In this document: one piece after another, positions 12,877-36,964 of the stretch
Numbering within the stretch: position 1 is the stretch's first letter
Layout: every line of letters starts with the position of its first letter
DNA from: an uncultured Candidatus Saccharibacteria bacterium
Lineage (GTDB): Bacteria; Patescibacteriota; Minisyncoccia; Phycocordibacterales; UBA9973
Length of the DNA: 64,000 nucleotides
Assembly (NCBI GenBank): GCA_964361705.1
Contig: CAYIBP010000002.1
Span: 12,435 to 76,434 of the forward strand
Direction: 5' to 3'
The notes under the pieces: model-generated
Seen by the model: only the letters and a program-made list of their open reading frames with translations
The model's database searches: none
What the model was told of the DNA's origin: nothing
Program-made: the position numbers and the translations under genes

Positions 12877-12951
12877 GGCCTTATCGTCTAATAGTTAGGA
12901 CGGAAGCTTCTCAAGCTTCAAATCTGGGTGCGATTCCCAGTAAGGTCACCA
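12877..12951 (+). tRNA. tRNA-Glu (anticodon CUC), CCA encoded
   Basis: Cloverleaf folded by hand: acceptor GGCCTTA/TAAGGTC, anticodon loop TTCTCAA, T-stem CTGGG/CCCAG, then ACCA. Confidence 0.8.
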
Positions 12952-14671
12952 ACTGGTTTTCATCAGGCGTAAATCCTGAAGAAAGCTTGAACACATAGGA
13001 CAATTTAGGTGTTCCATTAACTACTTCTTTATAAGTAGGCATTTTTTCGAATACAAGACCGAACAGATCTCTTTGTACTCTTGGATTGCTTGGGTTTAGT
13101 AGTATTTCTGCTGGGTGTTCCATTATTTTCTTCGCATCTCGCATAAATGCCTTGATATCATCTCGAGATATCTGTATTTTATGGCGCTGGTTGCCTGCAG
13201 CTTTAATCTTTACTTCTAAGTCTTCAATTTCTTTTTCAAGCTTTTCTCGTATAACCTGACTTTTTGTTACTTCAAATGCTTCAAGCTTTGATACTTGTTG
13301 TATCTCTAGGTCTGCGATATTTTGGTGAATGTCGCCAGATGCCCTAACAATTTCCTTTTCTCGTTTCCTATATTTGTTTAAGAATGTTGCTTCTAGCCCA
13401 TTAAGTACTTCAGGGACAAACTTCAAACTTTTGATGTATTTCTCTACGTTATGGTCAAAATCTTTCTTGTTTACAGCGAACCTCTCATGATTTCGAGCAC
13501 AATGATAAGATGGAAATCCTTCACCCGACTTGCCTTTAGATACACTTCCCAAAAATGGCTTAGGGCAAAGTGGGCATAATATAAATTTATATGGGAATAA
13601 CGGGTTGAATTTCATTCTTTCTTTACCTGATCTCCCAAAAGGATATCCTTGTACTAGTTCTAGACTACCGTCGACATTTTTCATTATAGCCAACTTACCC
13701 TTATTCGCTTGATTAAAGAGCTCTATTGAAACAAGACCATCATATTGGGCCTTCACGGGTTTGTAGAATGTCCATTTTTCACAAAGTACACCAGCATAGA
13801 TTGTATTTACAATAATACGTTGAAGTTGTTTGACGGTAAGAGGAATTCCTCCTGTTTGGCCAATTATTTTTTTATGGTCTTTGCTGTATCTATCTTGAAA
13901 TGGGGAGCGATAGCCCATAGCATTTACTCTGTCCACAATCTCAGGATCGCTTAACCCTTGAGCTCTTAGTGTAAACATTGCAATATAAAATTTTGCTCGC
14001 TCGGGGTGTGGCAATTGAATGGTTTTCTTTTTTCCATCAACGAATACTTTTTTATTGGTGAATCCATCTGCTGGCCGACGAGCACGATAACCTTGTTGTG
14101 TGAGTCGAATCTCTTGTCCAATCATACGAGTGAGGATGCTAGTGACTTCTTGATTCGCAACAGTTGCTAAAACATTCTCTGTAATTTCACTAGGATGATA
14201 CTTACTCCAATCATATTCCATTCCAAGATTTTCAAGTGTGTTTATAGAAGGTTGTATAACGCCGTTAGTATCTATCATCGCAACTCCATATTTAGCGAGT
14301 TCTCTTTTCATTCTAGAATATTCTTCGCTTCCTGCACGTGTCGCTCGATCAATAGATTTGAAAACGTAATAATCAACCAATCTAGGATGAGCTTTTATGT
14401 ATACAAGTATATCCTCAAAATCTTCTCTATCTGTTTTTCTACCTGAAATGGCCGTAGACCAAACTTTTCCATTGGGCACAATATGCCAATCTCTATCAGA
14501 TATAAATTTACGAATATCACTTTCTTGTCGTTCTAAACTTTCACCGTCCTGTTGTTTCAGAGAGCTTACTCTACACTGAACGACACAATTTTTCTCTTTT
14601 TTATCGTTGATTTTCATAATAATTACTACTATCACATTATGCGCTATTTTTTTCACGAAGCCAATTGTCAA
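12911..14671 (-). CDS. Large serine recombinase (integrase). Its 3' end runs 41 nt into the 3' half of tRNA-Glu.
   Basis: Resolvase catalytic domain VVQCRVSSLKQQDGESLERQ...YVFKSIDRATR, a zinc-ribbon CPLCPKP...HCARNH and a coiled-coil. 586 aa. Confidence 0.85.
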   Translation of the reverse strand: MTIGFVKKIAHNVIVVIIMKINDKKEKNCVVQCRVSSLKQQDGESLERQESDIRKFISDRDWHIVPNGKVWSTAISGRKTDREDFEDILVYIKAHPRLVDYYVFKSIDRATRAGSEEYSRMKRELAKYGVAMIDTNGVIQPSINTLENLGMEYDWSKYHPSEITENVLATVANQEVTSILTRMIGQEIRLTQQGYRARRPADGFTNKKVFVDGKKKTIQLPHPERAKFYIAMFTLRAQGLSDPEIVDRVNAMGYRSPFQDRYSKDHKKIIGQTGGIPLTVKQLQRIIVNTIYAGVLCEKWTFYKPVKAQYDGLVSIELFNQANKGKLAIMKNVDGSLELVQGYPFGRSGKERMKFNPLFPYKFILCPLCPKPFLGSVSKGKSGEGFPSYHCARNHERFAVNKKDFDHNVEKYIKSLKFVPEVLNGLEATFLNKYRKREKEIVRASGDIHQNIADLEIQQVSKLEAFEVTKSQVIREKLEKEIEDLEVKIKAAGNQRHKIQISRDDIKAFMRDAKKIMEHPAEILLNPSNPRVQRDLFGLVFEKMPTYKEVVNGTPKLSYVFKLSSGFTPDENQLVTLLGIAPRFEA

Positions 14672-14870
14672 AAAATAGGTCTGCTATTCTGTCGCAGGTA
14701 ATTCGCATTTGCTCAATTTGTTCATCAGTATATTTACTACTTTCAGGACCTAGTGATTTTTTGAATTCTTCAAAAGATAATTCTGTGGAATTTGAAAATT
14801 CACCCGATCCATTATTCTCAGGAGTTACCTTGTGTTCATTTTTGGTGAATTTTTTGGGTTCGTATTTCAC
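14637..14870 (-). CDS. Hypothetical small acidic protein
   Basis: 77-aa ORF directly upstream of the recombinase gene. Confidence 0.3.
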   Translation of the reverse strand: MKYEPKKFTKNEHKVTPENNGSGEFSNSTELSFEEFKKSLGPESSKYTDEQIEQMRITCDRIADLFFDNWLREKNSA

Positions 14871-14990
14871 CCTTTATTTATATAAAAAAGAGTGCTACGA
14901 AATACATACATCGTAGCTACGATTCGTCAAATATAAGGCGTTAAATTTAATGACTATTTAATTTGCTATCAACAGTGACTGTATCGCACT

Positions 14991-15677
14991 TCATTCTTTT
15001 TTGATTTTTATTTTTTTATTGAGTTTGTAACCTTCACCTTGATTACTTTCAATAAATTCTTGTTCATTTAATCCAAATTCCTTTTCAGCTTTAATTCTCA
15101 ATTTTGCAATTTCTGTGCCGAGTGTCCTTGTGGTTGTATTTATCTTCTTAGCAAGTATATCGCTTTTTGTAAATTCTTCATTTTCAGAAAACCACTCAAG
15201 TATACGATATCGCACACCGTTAGGTTTAAATTTTAATGAACGTTCTTTACCTGAAATATTAGAATGCAAATCACGAGGTGTTAACCAGAAAACCCTTGAA
15301 GCAATCCTTGCATCTTGACTAATTGTCTTTTCAGAATATTTAATTTCCCAATATAAATTTGTTACATCTAAAGGTCTACCATTTTCTCCCATTATACCAA
15401 CTCTTGCGCCAAGTACATTTTGATCAGTAACCGTGGATGGTTTTATGGCTCTAATTTTAAAGCGTCCCGATGATTCTTTCTCAACAACAGAAATCGCCAA
15501 CAGTACATCATTCAGTTTTGATGATCTGAAAATATCAGAGTAATTTTTCACCAAATCGTCCCAAAAGTATAGCTTTAGGGTAATACCATCTCTAAGCTCA
15601 CCGACTACACTCAAATCATCAATTTTGCGCTCTAGGACTTCTAAGATAGCTCTTTGCCTTAGTATTGGGTCAACCAT
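14991..15677 (-). CDS. DNA-binding protein with a C-terminal OmpR/PhoB-type winged helix (Trans_reg_C-like). N-terminal domain unknown.
   Basis: C-terminus YRILEWFSENEEFTKSDILAKKI...TLGTEIAKLRIK...GEGYKL. Confidence 0.45.
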   Translation of the reverse strand: MVDPILRQRAILEVLERKIDDLSVVGELRDGITLKLYFWDDLVKNYSDIFRSSKLNDVLLAISVVEKESSGRFKIRAIKPSTVTDQNVLGARVGIMGENGRPLDVTNLYWEIKYSEKTISQDARIASRVFWLTPRDLHSNISGKERSLKFKPNGVRYRILEWFSENEEFTKSDILAKKINTTTRTLGTEIAKLRIKAEKEFGLNEQEFIESNQGEGYKLNKKIKIKKE

Positions 15678-15920
15678 TTCATTATTATTACACAGTTTTG
15701 TGTCTTTATGCTATTATTAAGCTTACAAATAAATAAGCGACCTAACCCCTTAAGATTTCTTGAGGATATGGTCAAAAGACCCATAGAAGATACTGAACCC
15801 TACGTTCAGCAACTCTTCTATGGGCTATACAGGGAAACTTGTATAGGGTCGTAAGACCTAGCTGGCGTGGGGTTCTGTGCTTCTCACTGCTAGCCATTAT
15901 CAGCTAGCTTTTTATTTTCT

Positions 15921-16781
15921 ATGAAAAACAAATTGAACATAATTTTGAGTATTTTAGTCGCATTTATTTTAATACCTCAAATAGCTCTTGCTTCTTGGTG
16001 GAATCCATTCACTTGGTTTAATAAAAATACTAAACCTGCTGTAGAACAAACTGTTCAGGTACAGCAAAATAATGTTTTAGTTGAAGATAAAAAATTAACT
16101 GAGAAAAAAGTTTCAGAAAATAAAACTCTTACTAAAAAAGTAAACAATACTGACAAAAAATCTAAAAAAGAACCCAACACTCCTAACATACCACAAGTGG
16201 TAATCACTTCAACTCCAACAGTTATTGATGTGTGTAAAAACATCAATGGAATTCAAACAAATGTTTCTAGTGATGTGCGCATAATAGATGACAGCATTTG
16301 CTTACCTATCCCCGATTTATGTAAAAATGTTGAAGGAGCTCAATCATCTTATATTCCTAAAGGAATGTACCGCGAAAAAGATGGCAACTGTTATCCAAAA
16401 CCCATAGAAATTTACCTTCCCGAACCACAACAAACCACACAAAACACAAACCCAGTATCTACGCCAGTCGTTTCACCAGTTGATACAACACCGAAAGAAA
16501 TAACTCAGGAAGAAATGATGAGTGGTTTTATATATCAGTGGACAAATAATGATGTTCATACGTTGTGGATTGCAACAGACGGAGCACAGAAAGGTGACAT
16601 TGTAACTTTATCTTTTAATAATCTTACTGAAACTAAGACTGTGAAAGATGTCTCAAGCAAAAATTCGATTTGGTCGGGATGGACTTTTGATAACCTCGAT
16701 TTCAGTAAAGAATATCCAGTGTTCATAAAAATAGAACGTGGAAATAAATTTACAGTCTTTAATGGTATTGTTAAAAATTAA
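15921..16781 (+). CDS. Secreted hypothetical protein with repeated CKN(I/V)xG(I/A)Q Cys motifs
   Basis: Signal peptide MKNKLNIILSILVAFILIPQIALA, followed by an S/T/P/Q-rich linker. Confidence 0.45.
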   Translation: MKNKLNIILSILVAFILIPQIALASWWNPFTWFNKNTKPAVEQTVQVQQNNVLVEDKKLTEKKVSENKTLTKKVNNTDKKSKKEPNTPNIPQVVITSTPTVIDVCKNINGIQTNVSSDVRIIDDSICLPIPDLCKNVEGAQSSYIPKGMYREKDGNCYPKPIEIYLPEPQQTTQNTNPVSTPVVSPVDTTPKEITQEEMMSGFIYQWTNNDVHTLWIATDGAQKGDIVTLSFNNLTETKTVKDVSSKNSIWSGWTFDNLDFSKEYPVFIKIERGNKFTVFNGIVKN

Positions 16782-16853
16782 ATTTATACTAGGATTTCTA
16801 TATGCAATCAATAAAAATGATATTATTGATTTACCCACGACAACTTAAATATA

Positions 16854-17366
16854 ATGAAAAAATTCTTTAGCGATAAAAATAAAATAGTACTGTCTCTTAT
16901 TGTTGTTATAGCTTTCTTATCCCTTAATTTATCTTTAACAGCTATATTTATTTCTAATACATCTCATGAAATCGAGCAAGAAACCGAGATTGAATCTATT
17001 GCAATAAAAAATCCCTGCATGGCAGATGGTAAATCCAACCTTGAGTGGATCGCCTGCGAAAAAGATTTTTTAGTGATGATTAAGAAAGAAAAGGAAAGAT
17101 ACTTTGATAAGTTGATGAACTTGTTTACGAATAATTCAGAAAAGATGTTGGCCAACGATTCAGAACTGCTAAAAGAATTTACTGATTGGTATGAAAATTC
17201 CAATAACGCTAACCATACAAGGTGTCTGGCCGAAATGTATTACACTCGCGCCGGTTCTGCTTACGAAGGTAATATGACACGTTGCCAGTCTAGTGAAGCA
17301 CAACGAGACATTGAATTACTTAATAAAAATTTTGATTTTCTTTTCGATTCATACGATTATGAATAA
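16854..17366 (+). CDS. Secreted or membrane-anchored protein, possibly DUF1311/LprI-like
   Basis: N-terminal TM/signal sequence. Paired Cys with W/Y/R pattern (WIACEKD...DWYEN...TRC...EGNMTRC). Confidence 0.35.
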   Translation: MKKFFSDKNKIVLSLIVVIAFLSLNLSLTAIFISNTSHEIEQETEIESIAIKNPCMADGKSNLEWIACEKDFLVMIKKEKERYFDKLMNLFTNNSEKMLANDSELLKEFTDWYENSNNANHTRCLAEMYYTRAGSAYEGNMTRCQSSEAQRDIELLNKNFDFLFDSYDYE

Positions 17367-17598
17367 TAAATTAATCTAAAAACTAGACATGGGAATACTT
17401 AGCGTTTTATTGGTAATAGTTTGGATAGTTCTTCGCTCTATGGGGTTAATCCACATGCCTTGGGATAAATAAATTAGACAAAGTGTAATAATAATGGCAC
17501 CAAACTCGTGACCTTGTGTAACCTCGGGGATTACGGCTCATAAATGGGGTAAGGTGGCACTTGCTTACAAATCTCACCACCCCTCGGTAAATTGCCGT

Positions 17599-18201
17599 TT
17601 ATCGTTTGACGAGGATTCTTTTCTGCATATTTTTGTATATCTTATCTTCGTACTCATCAAGTAGGGCCTGATCTTCCTTGTCGATTTCCTCGTCTTGAAT
17701 ATTTTCAACAACAAGGCGAGTCTTATTCATTTCTTTTTCCATATGTTCAAGATATCGCCAAGAGTCGGGGATATTTTTATTATTTTGAATAGATTCTGCT
17801 ATATTTCGCCTAGCCCATAATTTTAAATTGCTTTCTCGGGTATTTTCTACTTCTTCAGCAAATTCAAGATCACTCTCCATGATATCGTCATACTCTTTTT
17901 CGGTCAGTTTATTGGCATGCAAGCGTTGCTCGTTAACGGGAGCTCCAATTAGTGCAGCTTCCTTAATTTTCGTTCTTCTAAAATCGGTCAATAATTGGGC
18001 TAATTCGTCCCGTAGTTCAGGAGTTTCTTGTAACCATCTGTAGTAGGTCGTGGCACCAATTCCTGCATATTCATATTGCTTTTTTGGTCTTTCGCCTCGG
18101 CCAGCCATGTCTTTCAACTTCGGAACACTCACGCAACGCTCTTCTCGCATGGATTCAGAGATTTTTTTGTTTATTTTTGATCGTTTTGTGGGCCTAGGCA
18201 T
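17599..18201 (-). CDS. HTH DNA-binding protein with a phage terminase small-subunit-like N-terminus
   Basis: MPRPTKRSKI...YAGIGATTYYRWLQETPELRDEL resembles small-terminase/HTH N-termini, followed by an acidic C-terminal half. It is the last gene of the methyltransferase-GHKL operon. Confidence 0.45.
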   Translation of the reverse strand: MPRPTKRSKINKKISESMREERCVSVPKLKDMAGRGERPKKQYEYAGIGATTYYRWLQETPELRDELAQLLTDFRRTKIKEAALIGAPVNEQRLHANKLTEKEYDDIMESDLEFAEEVENTRESNLKLWARRNIAESIQNNKNIPDSWRYLEHMEKEMNKTRLVVENIQDEEIDKEDQALLDEYEDKIYKNMQKRILVKR

Positions 18202-18222
18202 CTAAGTAAAATAAAAAACAGA

Positions 18223-20211
18223 TTAAATTTCCGAGTCGTCCTCAATATCTTTTACGAGTGTCATTAATTTACCAACCTCTCTATCTTGATCAAGAAAAGC
18301 AGAATATTGCTTATAGGCATTATTTATAAGTTCTTGATATAGAACAACTCGAATTTTTGCAGCCTTGAGTATCTCTATGGATTGGTTTGTGTCTTTTTCA
18401 TCATTCCATTCCTGAAGCTTTTCTCCAACAATACAAATACATTCAATTGGCTCATTTCCACTTCCAATTTTATCCAGTAACTTCTGTAGAGCGGACTGGT
18501 ATTTTTGTAGTTGATCCACTATTTCAGTAGTTCGAAGGATTCGATTTGATCTCTTGAGCTCAATAATGATATGTTTGCCTGCAGAATTTTTATATTTAAT
18601 ATCAATTCGTCCCTTCTTTTCCTCATCTGTTAATTTTGCATCGATTTTACCAAATGCACTTTTGACTGTTTTCTCCATTACAGGTGTCTCGGTTGCTCTG
18701 TCCCACGCAGAATCAAGAAGCCATAAATTTTCGTATAAATGTTTTTGAACCAATTTCTCCAGAGCATTTGAAGTTACTTTATCTTCAAGCTTCTTTATAA
18801 TTTCAATTCGAGCCCTAACGATTTGGTGATACAAAGTAGCCTCAATATCATTATGTTCAGCAAAGAGTTCACTAAATAAGGCTATGTTTTCGGGAGTGAT
18901 ACGATCAAGTGCTTCAAGATTTTCCTTATATCTAAGGCTTTCAAAGGCCAGTACAGCATGTTTAAATAATGTCTTTTTTTCACTTTCTTCAATAGTAAAC
19001 TGATTGATTTTCCCAAACAAATCTTCGGCGCGCTTTTTAGTTGGTTTCTTCAACGTATCAAACCAACTCTTAATAGCTTTATTTTTAAGAGCTTCTTTGA
19101 CCCCAATTTCTTTTCTATTTTCAGTCCATTGTTTTTGGATATGTTTTAACTCTTTTTGTACAAAAACTTGAAGTGCTTTATAACGGTCAGCATCTTTATT
19201 TATTTCTTGTCTATTTGTTGTTGCAATATCTTCCTCATTATCAAGGTCAAGAAAATCAGCATGAATTTCTCCTATTAAATATTTAGTATATACGCCACCT
19301 TCTGAAAAATCTTCAATAATATCTTCTTGTGCAAGTTTGCCGCGAACCATAACTACAATTTTATTTATATTTTCATCTTCATCCTTTAAATCACCTGAAC
19401 CAGTTACTGTACCTATCCAACCACTAACTTTGTATTTTTTACCAGAAACAATGATTTCATTTGACCGTTTTTCTTTCTTAAGTAGTTTTGTTTTGTCGCA
19501 AAGATCTGAATATTTTTTACTATCGTCACCGAAATACCAAATGTACTGAATTTTATGAAAATAATCACGATCAGTAACCTTCACTTCTCCGCCATCAATT
19601 TTTACAGAAAAATTATACTCCTTACCTAATACACTGAACCTTCTTGCAATTCTTTTCTTTAGAGCTGGTACAGTTGCTTTTGTAATGCTTTTTTTTAGTT
19701 GAACTAGGGTAATTTTTGTTCCACTGCTTGTTAATGTAATTTTATTATCTTCCACAGGGTCAGGATTGTATTCCTTTTCAGCAGTTTTACCGTCAAGAAG
19801 TTCCATGATTTTTTCATGAGATAGGATCAAGCCGTTTTTTTCTTTACCATTGTTAGTTTCAATAGTTGCCTTATTTGCAATTGAAAATAGAGATAATTTC
19901 CCGATACCTTTTCTACCCATAACACTTCTTTTGTATCTTGGAGTTTTACTAACTTCTTTCCTTTTTTCGTAACCAACAAAAAGATATCTCTTATTAATAT
20001 CTGCCAAAGACATCCCTTGTCCATTATCTTCAAGAACAATTGAATCCTTCTCAATATTTATGCTTACTTCACTCGCATCGGCATCCCATGAATTTGCGAT
20101 TATCTCTGATAAAACCGAAGGGATGTTGCTGTAAAGCTTGATACCGAGTTGGTTCAAGACGTTCAATCCGATGGTCATTTTATATTTTGGATCAATGGGT
20201 ATTTTAGTCAT
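18223..20211 (-). CDS. GHKL (HATPase_c, MORC/MutL-like) ATPase with a C-terminal PD-(D/E)xK-like nuclease domain. Putative restriction component.
   Basis: Bergerat-fold motifs EIIANSWDA (N-box), DNGQGM (G1) and GRKGIGKLSLF (G2). C-terminus DIKYKNSAGKHIIIELKRS. Confidence 0.7.
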   Translation of the reverse strand: MTKIPIDPKYKMTIGLNVLNQLGIKLYSNIPSVLSEIIANSWDADASEVSINIEKDSIVLEDNGQGMSLADINKRYLFVGYEKRKEVSKTPRYKRSVMGRKGIGKLSLFSIANKATIETNNGKEKNGLILSHEKIMELLDGKTAEKEYNPDPVEDNKITLTSSGTKITLVQLKKSITKATVPALKKRIARRFSVLGKEYNFSVKIDGGEVKVTDRDYFHKIQYIWYFGDDSKKYSDLCDKTKLLKKEKRSNEIIVSGKKYKVSGWIGTVTGSGDLKDEDENINKIVVMVRGKLAQEDIIEDFSEGGVYTKYLIGEIHADFLDLDNEEDIATTNRQEINKDADRYKALQVFVQKELKHIQKQWTENRKEIGVKEALKNKAIKSWFDTLKKPTKKRAEDLFGKINQFTIEESEKKTLFKHAVLAFESLRYKENLEALDRITPENIALFSELFAEHNDIEATLYHQIVRARIEIIKKLEDKVTSNALEKLVQKHLYENLWLLDSAWDRATETPVMEKTVKSAFGKIDAKLTDEEKKGRIDIKYKNSAGKHIIIELKRSNRILRTTEIVDQLQKYQSALQKLLDKIGSGNEPIECICIVGEKLQEWNDEKDTNQSIEILKAAKIRVVLYQELINNAYKQYSAFLDQDREVGKLMTLVKDIEDDSEI

Positions 20212-21277
20212 AGATGTTTACGTGCTCCTTTATACTTCTTCCAATAATAGACCCGAGTCTTACTGGCACAGCATTGCCGATAAATTTAGCAACCTTGCCT
20301 ATTTGAATTGGTTTTGTTGGATCTGAAAATTGATATTTTTGAGGAAATGTTTGAAATATAGCTGCTTCTCTCAAGCTTATTGCTCTATCTTGTGTTGGAT
20401 GCCCATATCTGCCATTTCCAAGACCCACACATTGTGTTGTCATGGTTGGCGAAGGTTCGTCCCAGCGCATACGACCGTAAACAGAACCGCGATAAGTTTT
20501 TCCTGATTTTTTTTTATGACATTCTAGTATTAATTCTTCGCTCCAGCTTTCTGAATTACCTCCATCGTGAGGAGTAGCTTTTATTCTTTTTAGATTAATA
20601 GGAGCAAGTTTTCTTGATCGATGCAATGGGTCTCTTTTACTAATTTCTCCATTTTTAATAGGCTCTAAGTGTGTAATGACATCACGAACAGTTACCCGCT
20701 TGTTTTTATGTGTTCTTTTAATTAATTGAATTTCACCAAATTTAGAAGCAAGTAATACAAGTCTTCTCCTTTTTTGTGGTACTCCAAATTCAGACACATC
20801 AACAATTTCGTATTTGTAATTATAATTGTTCTTATCAAGAACTCTCAAAAAGTTTGCAAACGCGGGGTATTTATTCTTAACAGCGAGATCACTGACATTT
20901 TCCATTGAAACAATATCTGGTTGGGTTTCAGAGATTAGCTGTGCAAATTTTCCTAATGGTTCAAGCTGTTTTTTTGTAATAGAATTAAGATTTAGTCTTG
21001 AGAATGGTTGACAAGGTGCACATCCTGCGAGCACTCGTATTGTTTCTTTTTTATCTCCAAATAACCTATCTATTTTTTCTGCTGTAACATTTAGAATATC
21101 TTCATCAATAAATTGTGTTTTATTATTGTATTCATACCCGAATTTACAGCTCGAATCATTATCAATTCCAGCCACTACATCAAGACCTTCTTTTATGAGT
21201 CCATGAGTTAGTCCTCCTATTCCACAAAATAAATCAATAACCTTTATTTTTGAAGATTGTAATTTCATTTGCATCAT
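20204..21277 (-). CDS. dcm: DNA (cytosine-5)-methyltransferase
   Basis: Motif I DLFCGIGG, motif IV PCQPFS and ENV. Overlaps the GHKL gene by 8 nt. Confidence 0.85.
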   Translation of the reverse strand: MMQMKLQSSKIKVIDLFCGIGGLTHGLIKEGLDVVAGIDNDSSCKFGYEYNNKTQFIDEDILNVTAEKIDRLFGDKKETIRVLAGCAPCQPFSRLNLNSITKKQLEPLGKFAQLISETQPDIVSMENVSDLAVKNKYPAFANFLRVLDKNNYNYKYEIVDVSEFGVPQKRRRLVLLASKFGEIQLIKRTHKNKRVTVRDVITHLEPIKNGEISKRDPLHRSRKLAPINLKRIKATPHDGGNSESWSEELILECHKKKSGKTYRGSVYGRMRWDEPSPTMTTQCVGLGNGRYGHPTQDRAISLREAAIFQTFPQKYQFSDPTKPIQIGKVAKFIGNAVPVRLGSIIGRSIKEHVNIYD

Positions 21278-21448
21278 AATTATATCATTTATATCTCTTA
21301 ATAAAAAGGGTATCTTTAGTAGACGGGGACCCTCAAACTTCCTAATTCTACTATGTTATTTTGGCCTTAATAGCTCTTTTGTTAGTTCAGGGATTCAATC
21401 AAGAGAAACCGAAAATGATTTGGGGGGTTAAAATTTTACTTGACTAAT

Positions 21449-36889: not shown

Positions 36890-36964
36890 TGGTGACCCTA
36901 CTGGGAATCGCACCCAGATTACCAGCTTGAAAAGCTGATGTCCTAACTATTAGACGATAGGGCC
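36890..36964 (-). tRNA. tRNA-Glu (anticodon UUC), CCA encoded
   Basis: Reverse complement gives GGCCCTA...anticodon loop TTTTCAA...T-arm CTGGG TGCGATT CCCAG...TAGGGTC ACCA. A terminator-like hairpin (agccca-gcag-tgggct) lies 3' of it, at 36863-36878. Confidence 0.8.

What the first reader, a model, noticed from the sequence alone, without database searches (positions are those of the whole stretch)
17599..21277. RM-like defence operon on the island: C5-methyltransferase, GHKL (MORC-like) ATPase-nuclease fusion, and a small-terminase-like HTH protein
Seen in sequence:
- Three co-oriented minus-strand genes with an 8-nt overlap (20204-20211) and a 21-nt gap.
- The first is a canonical Dcm-type C5-methyltransferase (DLFCGIGG, PCQPFS, ENV).
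- The second has all Bergerat-fold GHKL motifs (EIIANSWDA, DNGQGM, GRKGIGKLSLF) and ends in a D-x12-IELK segment that resembles a PD-(D/E)xK nuclease core.
- The third has a small-terminase/HTH-like N-terminus and an acidic tail.

Established knowledge: MORC/MutL-like GHKL ATPases associated with restriction-modification operons were predicted by comparative genomics. I recall this from Iyer, Abhiman and Aravind, 2008, from memory only. Almost none have been tested experimentally.

Inference: this is a methylation-gated ATP-dependent restriction module, possibly with a dedicated DNA-binding specificity or regulator subunit, carried on a mobile island. It is my best candidate for the unusual system in this window.
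Basis: partly seen in the sequence, partly recalled or inferred. Interest (0 to 1): 0.8.

Follow-up and report, generated by a model that had tools for sequence, protein, structure and literature searches.

The report
Known HgiDII-type restriction system on island
The first two genes are an ordinary member of an already named restriction-modification family (BbrUII/HgiDII: a cytosine methylase plus a nuclease with an ATPase head), and the third gene is a phage-packaging-like gene of the mobile island next to them, not part of the system.

Summary

- **The R-M pair.** Genes 1 and 2 are a two-gene Type II R-M system. The 662-aa protein matches the NCBIfam equivalog 'BbrUII/HgiDII family restriction enzyme' over its full length (764.7 bits, cutoff 550). 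In 60 of 80 homologous loci from many phyla, an orthologous C5-methyltransferase lies directly upstream.
- **N-terminal half.** It folds like MORC, Hsp90 and MutL (GHKL plus middle domain).
- **Gene 3 is not an R-M subunit.** None of the 80 R-M loci has it. Its 19 homologues, all from Patescibacteria, lie near large terminases in phage contigs, or in small serine-recombinase islands with other cargo. It looks like a terminase small subunit.
- **The island.** It abuts tRNA-Glu and also carries a LOOT RNA.

Verdict: a new member of a known kind, of low interest as a defence system. The possibly satellite-like island is the more novel lead.

The parts
20204..21277 (-). C5-cytosine DNA methyltransferase (357 aa), the modification subunit of the R-M pair.
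   Evidence: Pfam DNA_methylase 3.3e-55. PADLOC MTase_II 4.6e-83. TIGR00675 dcm 1.5e-37. Orthologues of 44-78% identity lie directly upstream of REase homologues in 60 of 80 loci.
18223..20211 (-). BbrUII/HgiDII-family Type II restriction endonuclease (662 aa): GHKL ATPase, middle domain, helical linker and PD-(D/E)xK nuclease.
   Evidence: NCBIfam NF050001 equivalog, 764.7 bits against cutoff 550, residues 10-656. PADLOC REase_II 3.6e-98. At least 4788 homologue clusters.
19717..20121 (-). GHKL (Bergerat-fold) ATP-binding domain, residues 31-165. Motif I is E36/N40, motif II is D62-G64-G66, motif III is G99-G104.
   Evidence: Pfam HATPase_c_3 7.9e-19. All motif residues are invariant in 44 homologues.
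19192..19716 (-). Middle (transducer/S5-like) domain, about residues 166-340.
   Evidence: Foldseek aligns about 400 columns of the model to the N-terminal plus middle domains of MORC2 (E 6.6e-12), TRAP1, GRP94 and MutL. pLDDT is low for residues 280-335, so the borders are approximate.
18712..19191 (-). Long helical linker, about residues 341-500.
   Evidence: Secondary structure of the AF2 model; low confidence for residues 426-518.
18292..18711 (-). PD-(D/E)xK nuclease domain (Shedu/NucS/RecB-like), about residues 501-640. Candidate catalytic residues: E513 (18673-18675), D537 (18601-18603), E551 (18559-18561), K553 (18553-18555), and Q567...Y571 (18499-18513).
17599..18201 (-). ORF3 (200 aa): terminase-small-subunit-like HTH protein. 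It belongs to the mobile island, not to the R-M system.
   Evidence: 18 of 19 family members hit phrog_4102 'terminase small subunit', best 2.5e-7; the window copy itself scores E 0.03. Homologues lie 2-3 small genes upstream of TerL in phage contigs L006 and L008, and in islands without R-M. It is absent from 80 of 80 R-M loci.
17367..17598 (.). Conserved non-coding stretch of the island, between the convergent genes sec170 and ORF3.
   Evidence: About 76% DNA identity to L004 9845-10105 and to L001 2922-3000. Function unknown.
15739..15859 (+). LOOT RNA (Rfam RF03000), an island component.
   Evidence: 82.4 bits against gathering score 46.4. Also found in islands L001 and L004 and in L090.
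12911..14671 (-). Large serine recombinase of the island.
   Evidence: Pfam Resolvase 9.8e-13 and Recombinase 5.2e-6. Its 3' end overlaps tRNA-Glu.
12877..12951 (+). tRNA-Glu(CTC), the probable integration target and proximal island junction.
   Evidence: ARAGORN and Rfam tRNA 59.9 bits. In L004 the recombinase gene overlaps the 3' end of a tmRNA gene in the same way.

Best explanation
Genes 1 and 2 form a two-gene Type II restriction-modification system of the BbrUII/HgiDII family.

How it most likely works:
- The C5-methyltransferase methylates a short palindrome in host DNA. By family membership this is most likely GTCGAC, the HgiDII site (inferred).
- The 662-aa enzyme cuts unmethylated copies of that site with a C-terminal RecB/NucS/Shedu-like PD-(D/E)xK nuclease (E513, D537, E551-x-K553).
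- Its N-terminal GHKL ATPase plus middle domain probably works as an ATP-driven dimerisation clamp that licenses the nuclease. This step is inferred from MutL and MORC, and from VcSduA, where both the ATPase Glu and the nuclease Lys are required.

Gene 3 is co-transcribed here but is a separate module. It is a terminase-small-subunit-like DNA-binding protein of a roughly 8.5-kb serine-recombinase element integrated at tRNA-Glu. The R-M pair is probably cargo of that element.
For: - Family membership: full-length equivalog match, 764.7 bits against cutoff 550; PADLOC REase_II and MTase_II.
- MTase adjacency: an orthologous MTase lies directly upstream on the same strand in 60 of 80 loci from many bacterial and archaeal phyla.
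- Literature: R.HgiDII is a REBASE Type IIP enzyme with a GHKL N-terminus; M.HgiDII is a characterised m5C MTase for GTCGAC, and M.BbrUII is a characterised m5C MTase.
- ATPase: GHKL motifs are invariant, and the fold matches MORC2, Hsp90 and MutL.
- Nuclease: fold and motif evidence.
- VcSduA E27A and K557A both abolish defence.
- ORF3 independence.
- Third gene elsewhere: the only recurrent third gene in the family is Vsr, in 7 of 80 loci.
- Island features.
Against: - No biochemical or methylome data exist for this copy.
- GTCGAC is not avoided in the window (3 observed, 4.8 expected). Across 1 Mb of homologous loci its depletion (O/E 0.68) ranks only 8th of 64 palindromes, so the recognition site is unconfirmed.
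- The window protein itself has only sub-threshold nuclease hits: NucS 2.6e-4 in NCBIfam and NucS_C 0.097 in Pfam.
- The models are of moderate quality, pLDDT about 71.
- From memory, HgiDII was used as an ordinary Mg-dependent Type II enzyme, so an ATP requirement is not established.
- The distal island border was not found, so 'cargo of the island' is an inference.
Confidence: 0.85

Rival explanations
1. All three genes form one system, with ORF3 as a DNA-binding specificity or regulator subunit of the GHKL nuclease.
For: The three genes are co-oriented, the gap is 21 nt, and no terminator-like site separates them. ORF3 has an HTH-like N-terminus.
Against: 0 of 80 REase loci have an ORF3 homologue. 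The closest REase relatives, L090 (86% identity) and L093 (72%), lack it. ORF3 homologues sit in phage packaging modules and in islands with unrelated cargo. The family's founders are two-gene systems.
Confidence: 0.03
2. The 662-aa protein works as a Shedu-type (type I-D, paraMORC3-like) infection-sensing nuclease and not as a sequence-specific Type II enzyme, with the methylase only moderating self-toxicity.
For: It has the same architecture as VcSduA. The best structural matches of its C-terminal domain are SduA. SduA_C hits occur in 19 of 44 members. Shedu genes are often found inside R-M loci.
Against: The equivalog match is to a family whose founders are REBASE Type II enzymes with a defined site. 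There is no PADLOC Shedu hit, and there are strong REase_II hits. The obligate upstream orthologous MTase is the signature of classical R-M; paraMORC3/VcSduA-type proteins are typically stand-alone.
Confidence: 0.1
3. ORF3 is an excisionase or recombination directionality factor, or a transcription regulator of the island, and not a terminase small subunit.
For: Three family members weakly hit an excisionase PHROG (E 0.017). Pfam hits are generic HTH families: HTH_23 and HTH_Tnp_1_2. In the phage contigs 2-3 small ORFs separate it from TerL.
Against: 18 of 19 members hit TerS PHROG 4102, and three further TerS PHROGs are hit. Four members hit Sf6_terminase. In the phage contigs it lies in the packaging module with no integrase nearby.
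Confidence: 0.25

Closest known systems
HgiDII (Herpetosiphon) and BbrUII (Bifidobacterium breve UCC2003) Type II R-M systems; NCBIfam NF050001.
   Same: Full-length equivalog-level match of the REase. The domain order is the same (GHKL N-terminus plus a conserved C-terminal domain). A cognate C5-MTase lies immediately upstream. It is a two-gene system.
   Different: The host is a Patescibacteria MAG. Identity to the homologues recovered from other phyla is about 40-59%, and the sequences of the two founders themselves were not available for comparison. It sits beside or on a small serine-recombinase island. The recognition site was not verified. No Vsr gene is present, whereas 7 of 80 relatives have one.
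VcSduA / type I-D Shedu / paraMORC3 (GHKL + S5 + DUF4263 or RE-fold nuclease).
   Same: The architecture and size are the same. The catalytic Glu (E36 here, E27 there) and nuclease Lys (K553 here, K557 there) are at near-identical positions. The nuclease is SduA-like at the fold level.
   Different: Those proteins are typically stand-alone genes. This family is tightly coupled to an orthologous MTase and is classed as Type II R-M. The window protein does not reach significance for Pfam SduA_C and has no PADLOC Shedu hit.
MutL, MORC and Hsp90 GHKL ATPases.
   Same: The N-terminal roughly 400 residues superpose on their ATPase plus middle domains. The Bergerat motifs are conserved.
   Different: Sequence identity is only 13-17%. 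The C-terminal nuclease is PD-(D/E)xK, not the MutL C-terminal endonuclease. It has no repair partners.
Phage-inducible chromosomal islands and other phage satellites that encode their own small terminase. This comparison applies to ORF3 and the island only.
   Same: A small integrative element at a tRNA gene, carrying a recombinase, HTH proteins, a TerS-like gene 62-64% identical to a phage gene, no structural genes, and variable defence cargo.
   Different: It uses a serine recombinase, not a tyrosine integrase. The host is a CPR bacterium. It carries a LOOT RNA. No helper phage, induction or packaging evidence exists, and the far border is undefined.

Membership tests
BbrUII/HgiDII family Type II restriction enzyme (NF050001) | Full-length match to the family model above its curated cutoff. 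| tested here: met
   764.7 bits against 550, residues 10-656 on profile positions 1-659.
BbrUII/HgiDII family Type II restriction enzyme (NF050001) | N-terminal GHKL domain with intact ATP-binding motifs. | tested here: met
   HATPase_c_3 7.9e-19. E36, N40, D62, G64, G66 and G99-G104 are invariant.
BbrUII/HgiDII family Type II restriction enzyme (NF050001) | Cognate m5C methyltransferase encoded next to it. | tested here: met
   In the window. In homologues: 60 of 80 loci have the orthologue directly upstream.
BbrUII/HgiDII family Type II restriction enzyme (NF050001) | Cleaves unmethylated GTCGAC. | tested here: inconclusive
   Only indirect site-avoidance tests were possible: 3 observed against 4.8 expected in the window, and O/E 0.68, rank 8 of 64, over 80 loci. 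Biochemistry is needed.
PD-(D/E)xK nuclease superfamily (C-terminal domain) | An alpha-beta-beta-beta-alpha-beta core with D...(D/E)xK on adjacent strands. | tested here: met
Shedu (SduA, DUF4263/PF14082) | Significant match to the SduA_C model. | tested here: inconclusive
Shedu (SduA, DUF4263/PF14082) | A single-gene system that is independent of a methylase. | tested here: not met
   An orthologous MTase is directly upstream in 60 of 80 loci.
MORC / paraMORC GHKL+S5 ATPases (Iyer 2008) | A GHKL domain followed by an S5-like middle domain. | tested here: met
   Foldseek gives MORC2 E 6.6e-12 over about 400 columns, and also MORC3 and MORC4. The middle domain is modelled at low confidence.
Sensor histidine kinase | A DHp/HisKA domain with a phospho-accepting His. 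| tested here: not met
   No HisKA hit in Pfam. The fold neighbours are MORC, Hsp90 and MutL.
Terminase small subunit (ORF3) | Sequence match to TerS families. | tested here: inconclusive
   The window copy scores E 0.03. 18 of 19 family members hit phrog_4102, best 2.5e-7. Four hit Sf6_terminase, best 0.0084.
Terminase small subunit (ORF3) | Encoded just upstream of the large terminase in phages. | tested here: met
   In L006, L008 and L009 the homologue lies 2-3 small ORFs upstream of TerL (phrog_675, 2.6e-84), and portal and major head genes follow.
Phage satellite (PICI-like), for the island | Helper-phage-dependent excision and packaging. | not testable with these tools
   Only the gene content is suggestive.

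The most novel reading that the evidence does not exclude
The R-M pair is defence cargo of a previously undescribed family of roughly 6-9-kb integrative elements in Patescibacteria (CPR).

What defines the family:
- A large serine recombinase whose 3' end overlaps a tRNA or tmRNA gene.
- A LOOT RNA.
- A conserved non-coding stretch.
- A terminase-small-subunit gene 62-64% identical to one in CPR phages.

On this reading the elements are phage satellites that hijack helper-phage packaging and carry swappable defence genes: HgiDII-type R-M here, and an AriA/NsnB-like ATPase in L001.
Probability: 0.25. Interest if true: 0.65.

Novelty: new member of a known kind. Interest (0 to 1): 0.27.

Why it matters
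As a defence system it adds little. It is one more copy of a very large, already named R-M family with at least 4788 sequence clusters.

Two modest points have wider value:
- **The unassigned domain.** The C-terminal domain of R.HgiDII, reported in 2008 as matching no known fold, models here as a Shedu/NucS-like PD-(D/E)xK nuclease with an invariant E-D-ExK-QxxxY signature. That places a classical Type II enzyme family beside the recently tested GHKL-Shedu proteins. It makes the question 'what does the ATPase do in a Type II enzyme?' testable with a well-behaved enzyme.
- **The island.** The third gene exposes a family of small islands in CPR bacteria that carry a TerS-like gene and a LOOT RNA. 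This gives the orphan LOOT RNA a genomic context and suggests satellite-like elements in a phylum where none have been described to my knowledge.

Tried and rejected
1. A single-sequence scan of reference genomes for the REase found nothing. It was repeated with an alignment.
2. GTCGAC avoidance was not informative, either in the window or across 80 loci: many palindromes are equally depleted.
3. PDB sequence searches with the full protein, the family profile and a C-terminal-only profile gave only GHKL hits or nothing. The nuclease assignment therefore rests on fold comparison and on Pfam hits in relatives.
4. Island att sites: there are no significant direct repeats between the tRNA-Glu region and either candidate distal border, and none in L004 either. 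There is no second tRNA 3' fragment.
5. The 525-nt stretch beyond the MTase has no homology to the related islands, and no ORF in it suggests a controller protein.
6. The search for an empty site:
   - Contigs carrying the flanking genes either contain the island or stop inside tRNA-Glu, probably because of the second tRNA-Glu at 36890.
   - One low-coverage contig (L103) diverges exactly at 21282/21283. Its 32 orphan bases could not be extended.
7. tblastn of ORF3 against 50,697 annotated phages gave no meaningful hit.
8. The O'Connell Motherway 2009 BbrUII paper is not held. The main text of the LOOT discovery paper does not discuss the motif.
9. The histidine-kinase reading is rejected.
Full report
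**Observation.** The MTase stop and the REase start overlap in tATGACTAA, with an AAGGAG 13 nt upstream. One public gene call uses M12 instead (651 aa), but homologues conserve residues before M12, so the longer form is preferred. The gap to ORF3 is 21 nt, and no terminator-like site separates the genes. Every motif quoted is present and statistically secure: Pfam DNA_methylase 3.3e-55 and HATPase_c_3 7.9e-19.

**What genes 1 and 2 are.** The 662-aa protein matches the NCBIfam equivalog NF050001, 'BbrUII/HgiDII family restriction enzyme', end to end at 764.7 bits against a curated cutoff of 550. It also matches PADLOC Type II REase models (3.6e-98), and the MTase matches Type II MTase models (4.6e-83). 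R.HgiDII is a REBASE Type IIP enzyme. [quoted passage not shown] M.HgiDII is an experimentally characterised m5C methylase for GTCGAC, and M.BbrUII is a characterised m5C methylase (PMC5867850). The family is very large, with at least 4788 clusters at E<=1e-10 that are typically 54-59% identical.

**Neighbourhood test.** I fetched 80 loci from reference genomes across many bacterial and archaeal phyla. In 60 of them an orthologous, full-length C5-MTase (44-78% identity) lies directly upstream on the same strand, within 200 nt. Four have it in another arrangement, five are cut by a contig end, six have only a distant C5-MTase, and five have none. The only recurrent third gene is a Vsr mismatch endonuclease, downstream in 7 loci. 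None of the 80 loci has an ORF3 homologue. This is a conserved two-gene module.

**Anatomy of the nuclease.** An AlphaFold2 model of the whole protein (pLDDT 70.6) matches MORC2 bound to DNA (E 6.6e-12), TRAP1, GRP94, Hsp90, MutL N-terminal domains, MORC3 and MORC4 over about 400 columns. 'MORC-like GHKL plus middle domain' therefore holds at the fold level. The catalytic E36, N40, D62-G64-G66 and the G99-G104 loop are invariant.

The invariant residues sit on the expected elements: E513 on a helix, D537 on one strand, E551-x-K553 on the next strand, and Q567-xxx-Y571 on the following helix. This is the RecB-like E-D-ExK-QxxxY pattern, which Iyer et al. reported in part (E-D-ExK) for paraMORC3. 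No solved structure of the family exists.

**Mechanism.**
- Shown: family membership, domain folds, invariant catalytic residues and obligate MTase linkage.
- Inferred: the MTase protects GTCGAC, and the REase dimer cuts unmethylated sites.
- Inferred: the GHKL module acts as an ATP-driven dimerisation clamp that licenses the nuclease. This is by analogy with MutL and MORC, and with VcSduA, a GHKL-DUF4263 protein of the same layout in which E27A and K557A each abolish phage defence (PMC12137116).
- Not shown: whether ATP is needed. From memory, HgiDII was used as an ordinary Type II enzyme.
- Not confirmed: the recognition site. The avoidance tests were uninformative.

**Gene 3.** ORF3 has no Pfam, PADLOC or NCBIfam hit and only 19 homologues, all from Patescibacteria or groundwater metagenomes.
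- In L006, L008 and L009 the homologue (62-64% identity) sits 2-3 small ORFs upstream of a large terminase (phrog_675, 2.6e-84), with portal and major head genes following.
- In L001 and in L004/L005 the homologue (72-73% identity) lies at the far end of a small element from a serine recombinase, with unrelated cargo. In L001 that cargo is an AriA/NsnB-like ATPase (6.9e-39).
- Eighteen of 19 family members hit the PHROG 'terminase small subunit' 4102 (best 2.5e-7). Three other TerS PHROGs and Pfam Sf6_terminase also appear.
- The closest REase relatives, L090 (86% identity) and L093 (72%), have no ORF3.

ORF3 is therefore a TerS-like island or phage gene, not an R-M subunit. An excisionase or regulator role is a weaker alternative.

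**The island.**
- The serine recombinase gene (12911-14671) overlaps the 3' end of tRNA-Glu(CTC) at 12877-12951. In L004 the equivalent recombinase overlaps the 3' end of a tmRNA gene.
- A full-length LOOT RNA (RF03000, 82.4 bits) lies at 15739-15859. It recurs in L001, L004 and L090 in the same relative position.
- The 286-aa protein is 66% identical to its counterpart in L001. The non-coding stretch 17367-17598 is about 76% identical to L001 and L004.
- The element has no structural phage genes.
- Its distal border could not be fixed. There are no att repeats, no homology beyond the MTase, and no clean empty site. One low-coverage contig (L103) diverges exactly 5 nt upstream of the MTase start codon, but it could not be extended.

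That the R-M pair is island cargo is likely (about 0.65) but not proven. The host is a Patescibacteria MAG. NCBI labels a fragment of the REase only as 'ATP-binding protein, partial'.

**Comparison and verdict.** This is a member of the BbrUII/HgiDII Type II R-M family. It works like, and is architecturally the same as, paraMORC3 / type I-D Shedu (VcSduA), but it fails the Shedu membership tests: it is not a stand-alone gene and the window copy has no significant SduA_C match. Its claims of novelty and of a three-gene system do not hold. Novelty: new member of a known kind. Interest is low (0.27). What lifts it slightly is the fold assignment for a long-unassigned Type II domain and the satellite-like, LOOT-bearing island family in CPR bacteria, which deserves its own follow-up.

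Noticed in passing
window 15739-15859 (+); also L001 4156-4276, L004 11106-11228, L090 6174-6292: A full-length LOOT RNA (Rfam RF03000, 82-93 bits against gathering score 46.4) lies inside the island, just upstream of the opposite-strand genes for secreted-looking proteins. It recurs at the same relative position in related serine-recombinase islands. This gives an orphan RNA motif a consistent mobile-element context.
   Followed up: partly
window 12877-21282 (approx.); L001; L004 7950-14033: A family of small Patescibacteria integrative elements. The serine recombinase gene overlaps the 3' end of a tRNA or tmRNA gene. The elements also carry an HTH protein, a LOOT RNA, 2-5 opposite-strand genes, a conserved non-coding stretch, a TerS-like gene and variable defence cargo (R-M here, an AriA/NsnB-like ATPase in L001). 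Possibly phage satellites.
   Followed up: partly
window 17367-17598: The non-coding stretch between the convergent genes sec170 and ORF3 is conserved at about 76% DNA identity in islands L001 and L004, but not in the phage contigs. It could be a pac-like site, a terminator region or an RNA. There is no Rfam hit.
   Followed up: no
window 21282/21283; L103 1-32: One low-coverage contig from a sister sample is identical to the window rightwards from 21283, which is 5 nt upstream of the MTase start codon. To the left it carries 32 nt found nowhere else. Other assemblies break at 21342-21350. This may be a strain-variable junction at the edge of the R-M module, or an assembly artefact.
   Followed up: partly
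L093 4105-6009: Next to a 72%-identical copy of this R-M pair lies a second GHKL protein (634 aa). Its N-terminus resembles this REase family (PADLOC REase_II 5.4e-26). Its C-terminus (residues 411-561) matches the PADLOC SpbK model (2.2e-18). From my own knowledge SpbK is a TIR-domain protein, which would fit the GHKL+TIR 'paraMORC4' architecture of Iyer 2008. A further C5-MTase plus a DUF4928 Type II REase follow.
   Followed up: no
L016, L024, L025, L061, L065, L080, L085 (just downstream of the REase homologue): Seven of 80 family loci carry a Vsr very-short-patch repair endonuclease as the third gene (Pfam Vsr 1.4e-16 to 1.8e-28 in the three tested). The window system has none.
   Followed up: yes
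window 36890-36964 (-) and 12877-12951 (+): The two tRNA-Glu genes (TTC and CTC anticodons) have near-identical 3' halves. This probably explains why several public assemblies break inside the tRNA at the island junction.
   Followed up: partly
window 15921-16781 (+) and 16854-17366 (+): Two island genes encode proteins with hydrophobic, signal-like N-termini and no family match. The 286-aa one is 66% identical to its counterpart in island L001. Function unknown.
   Followed up: no
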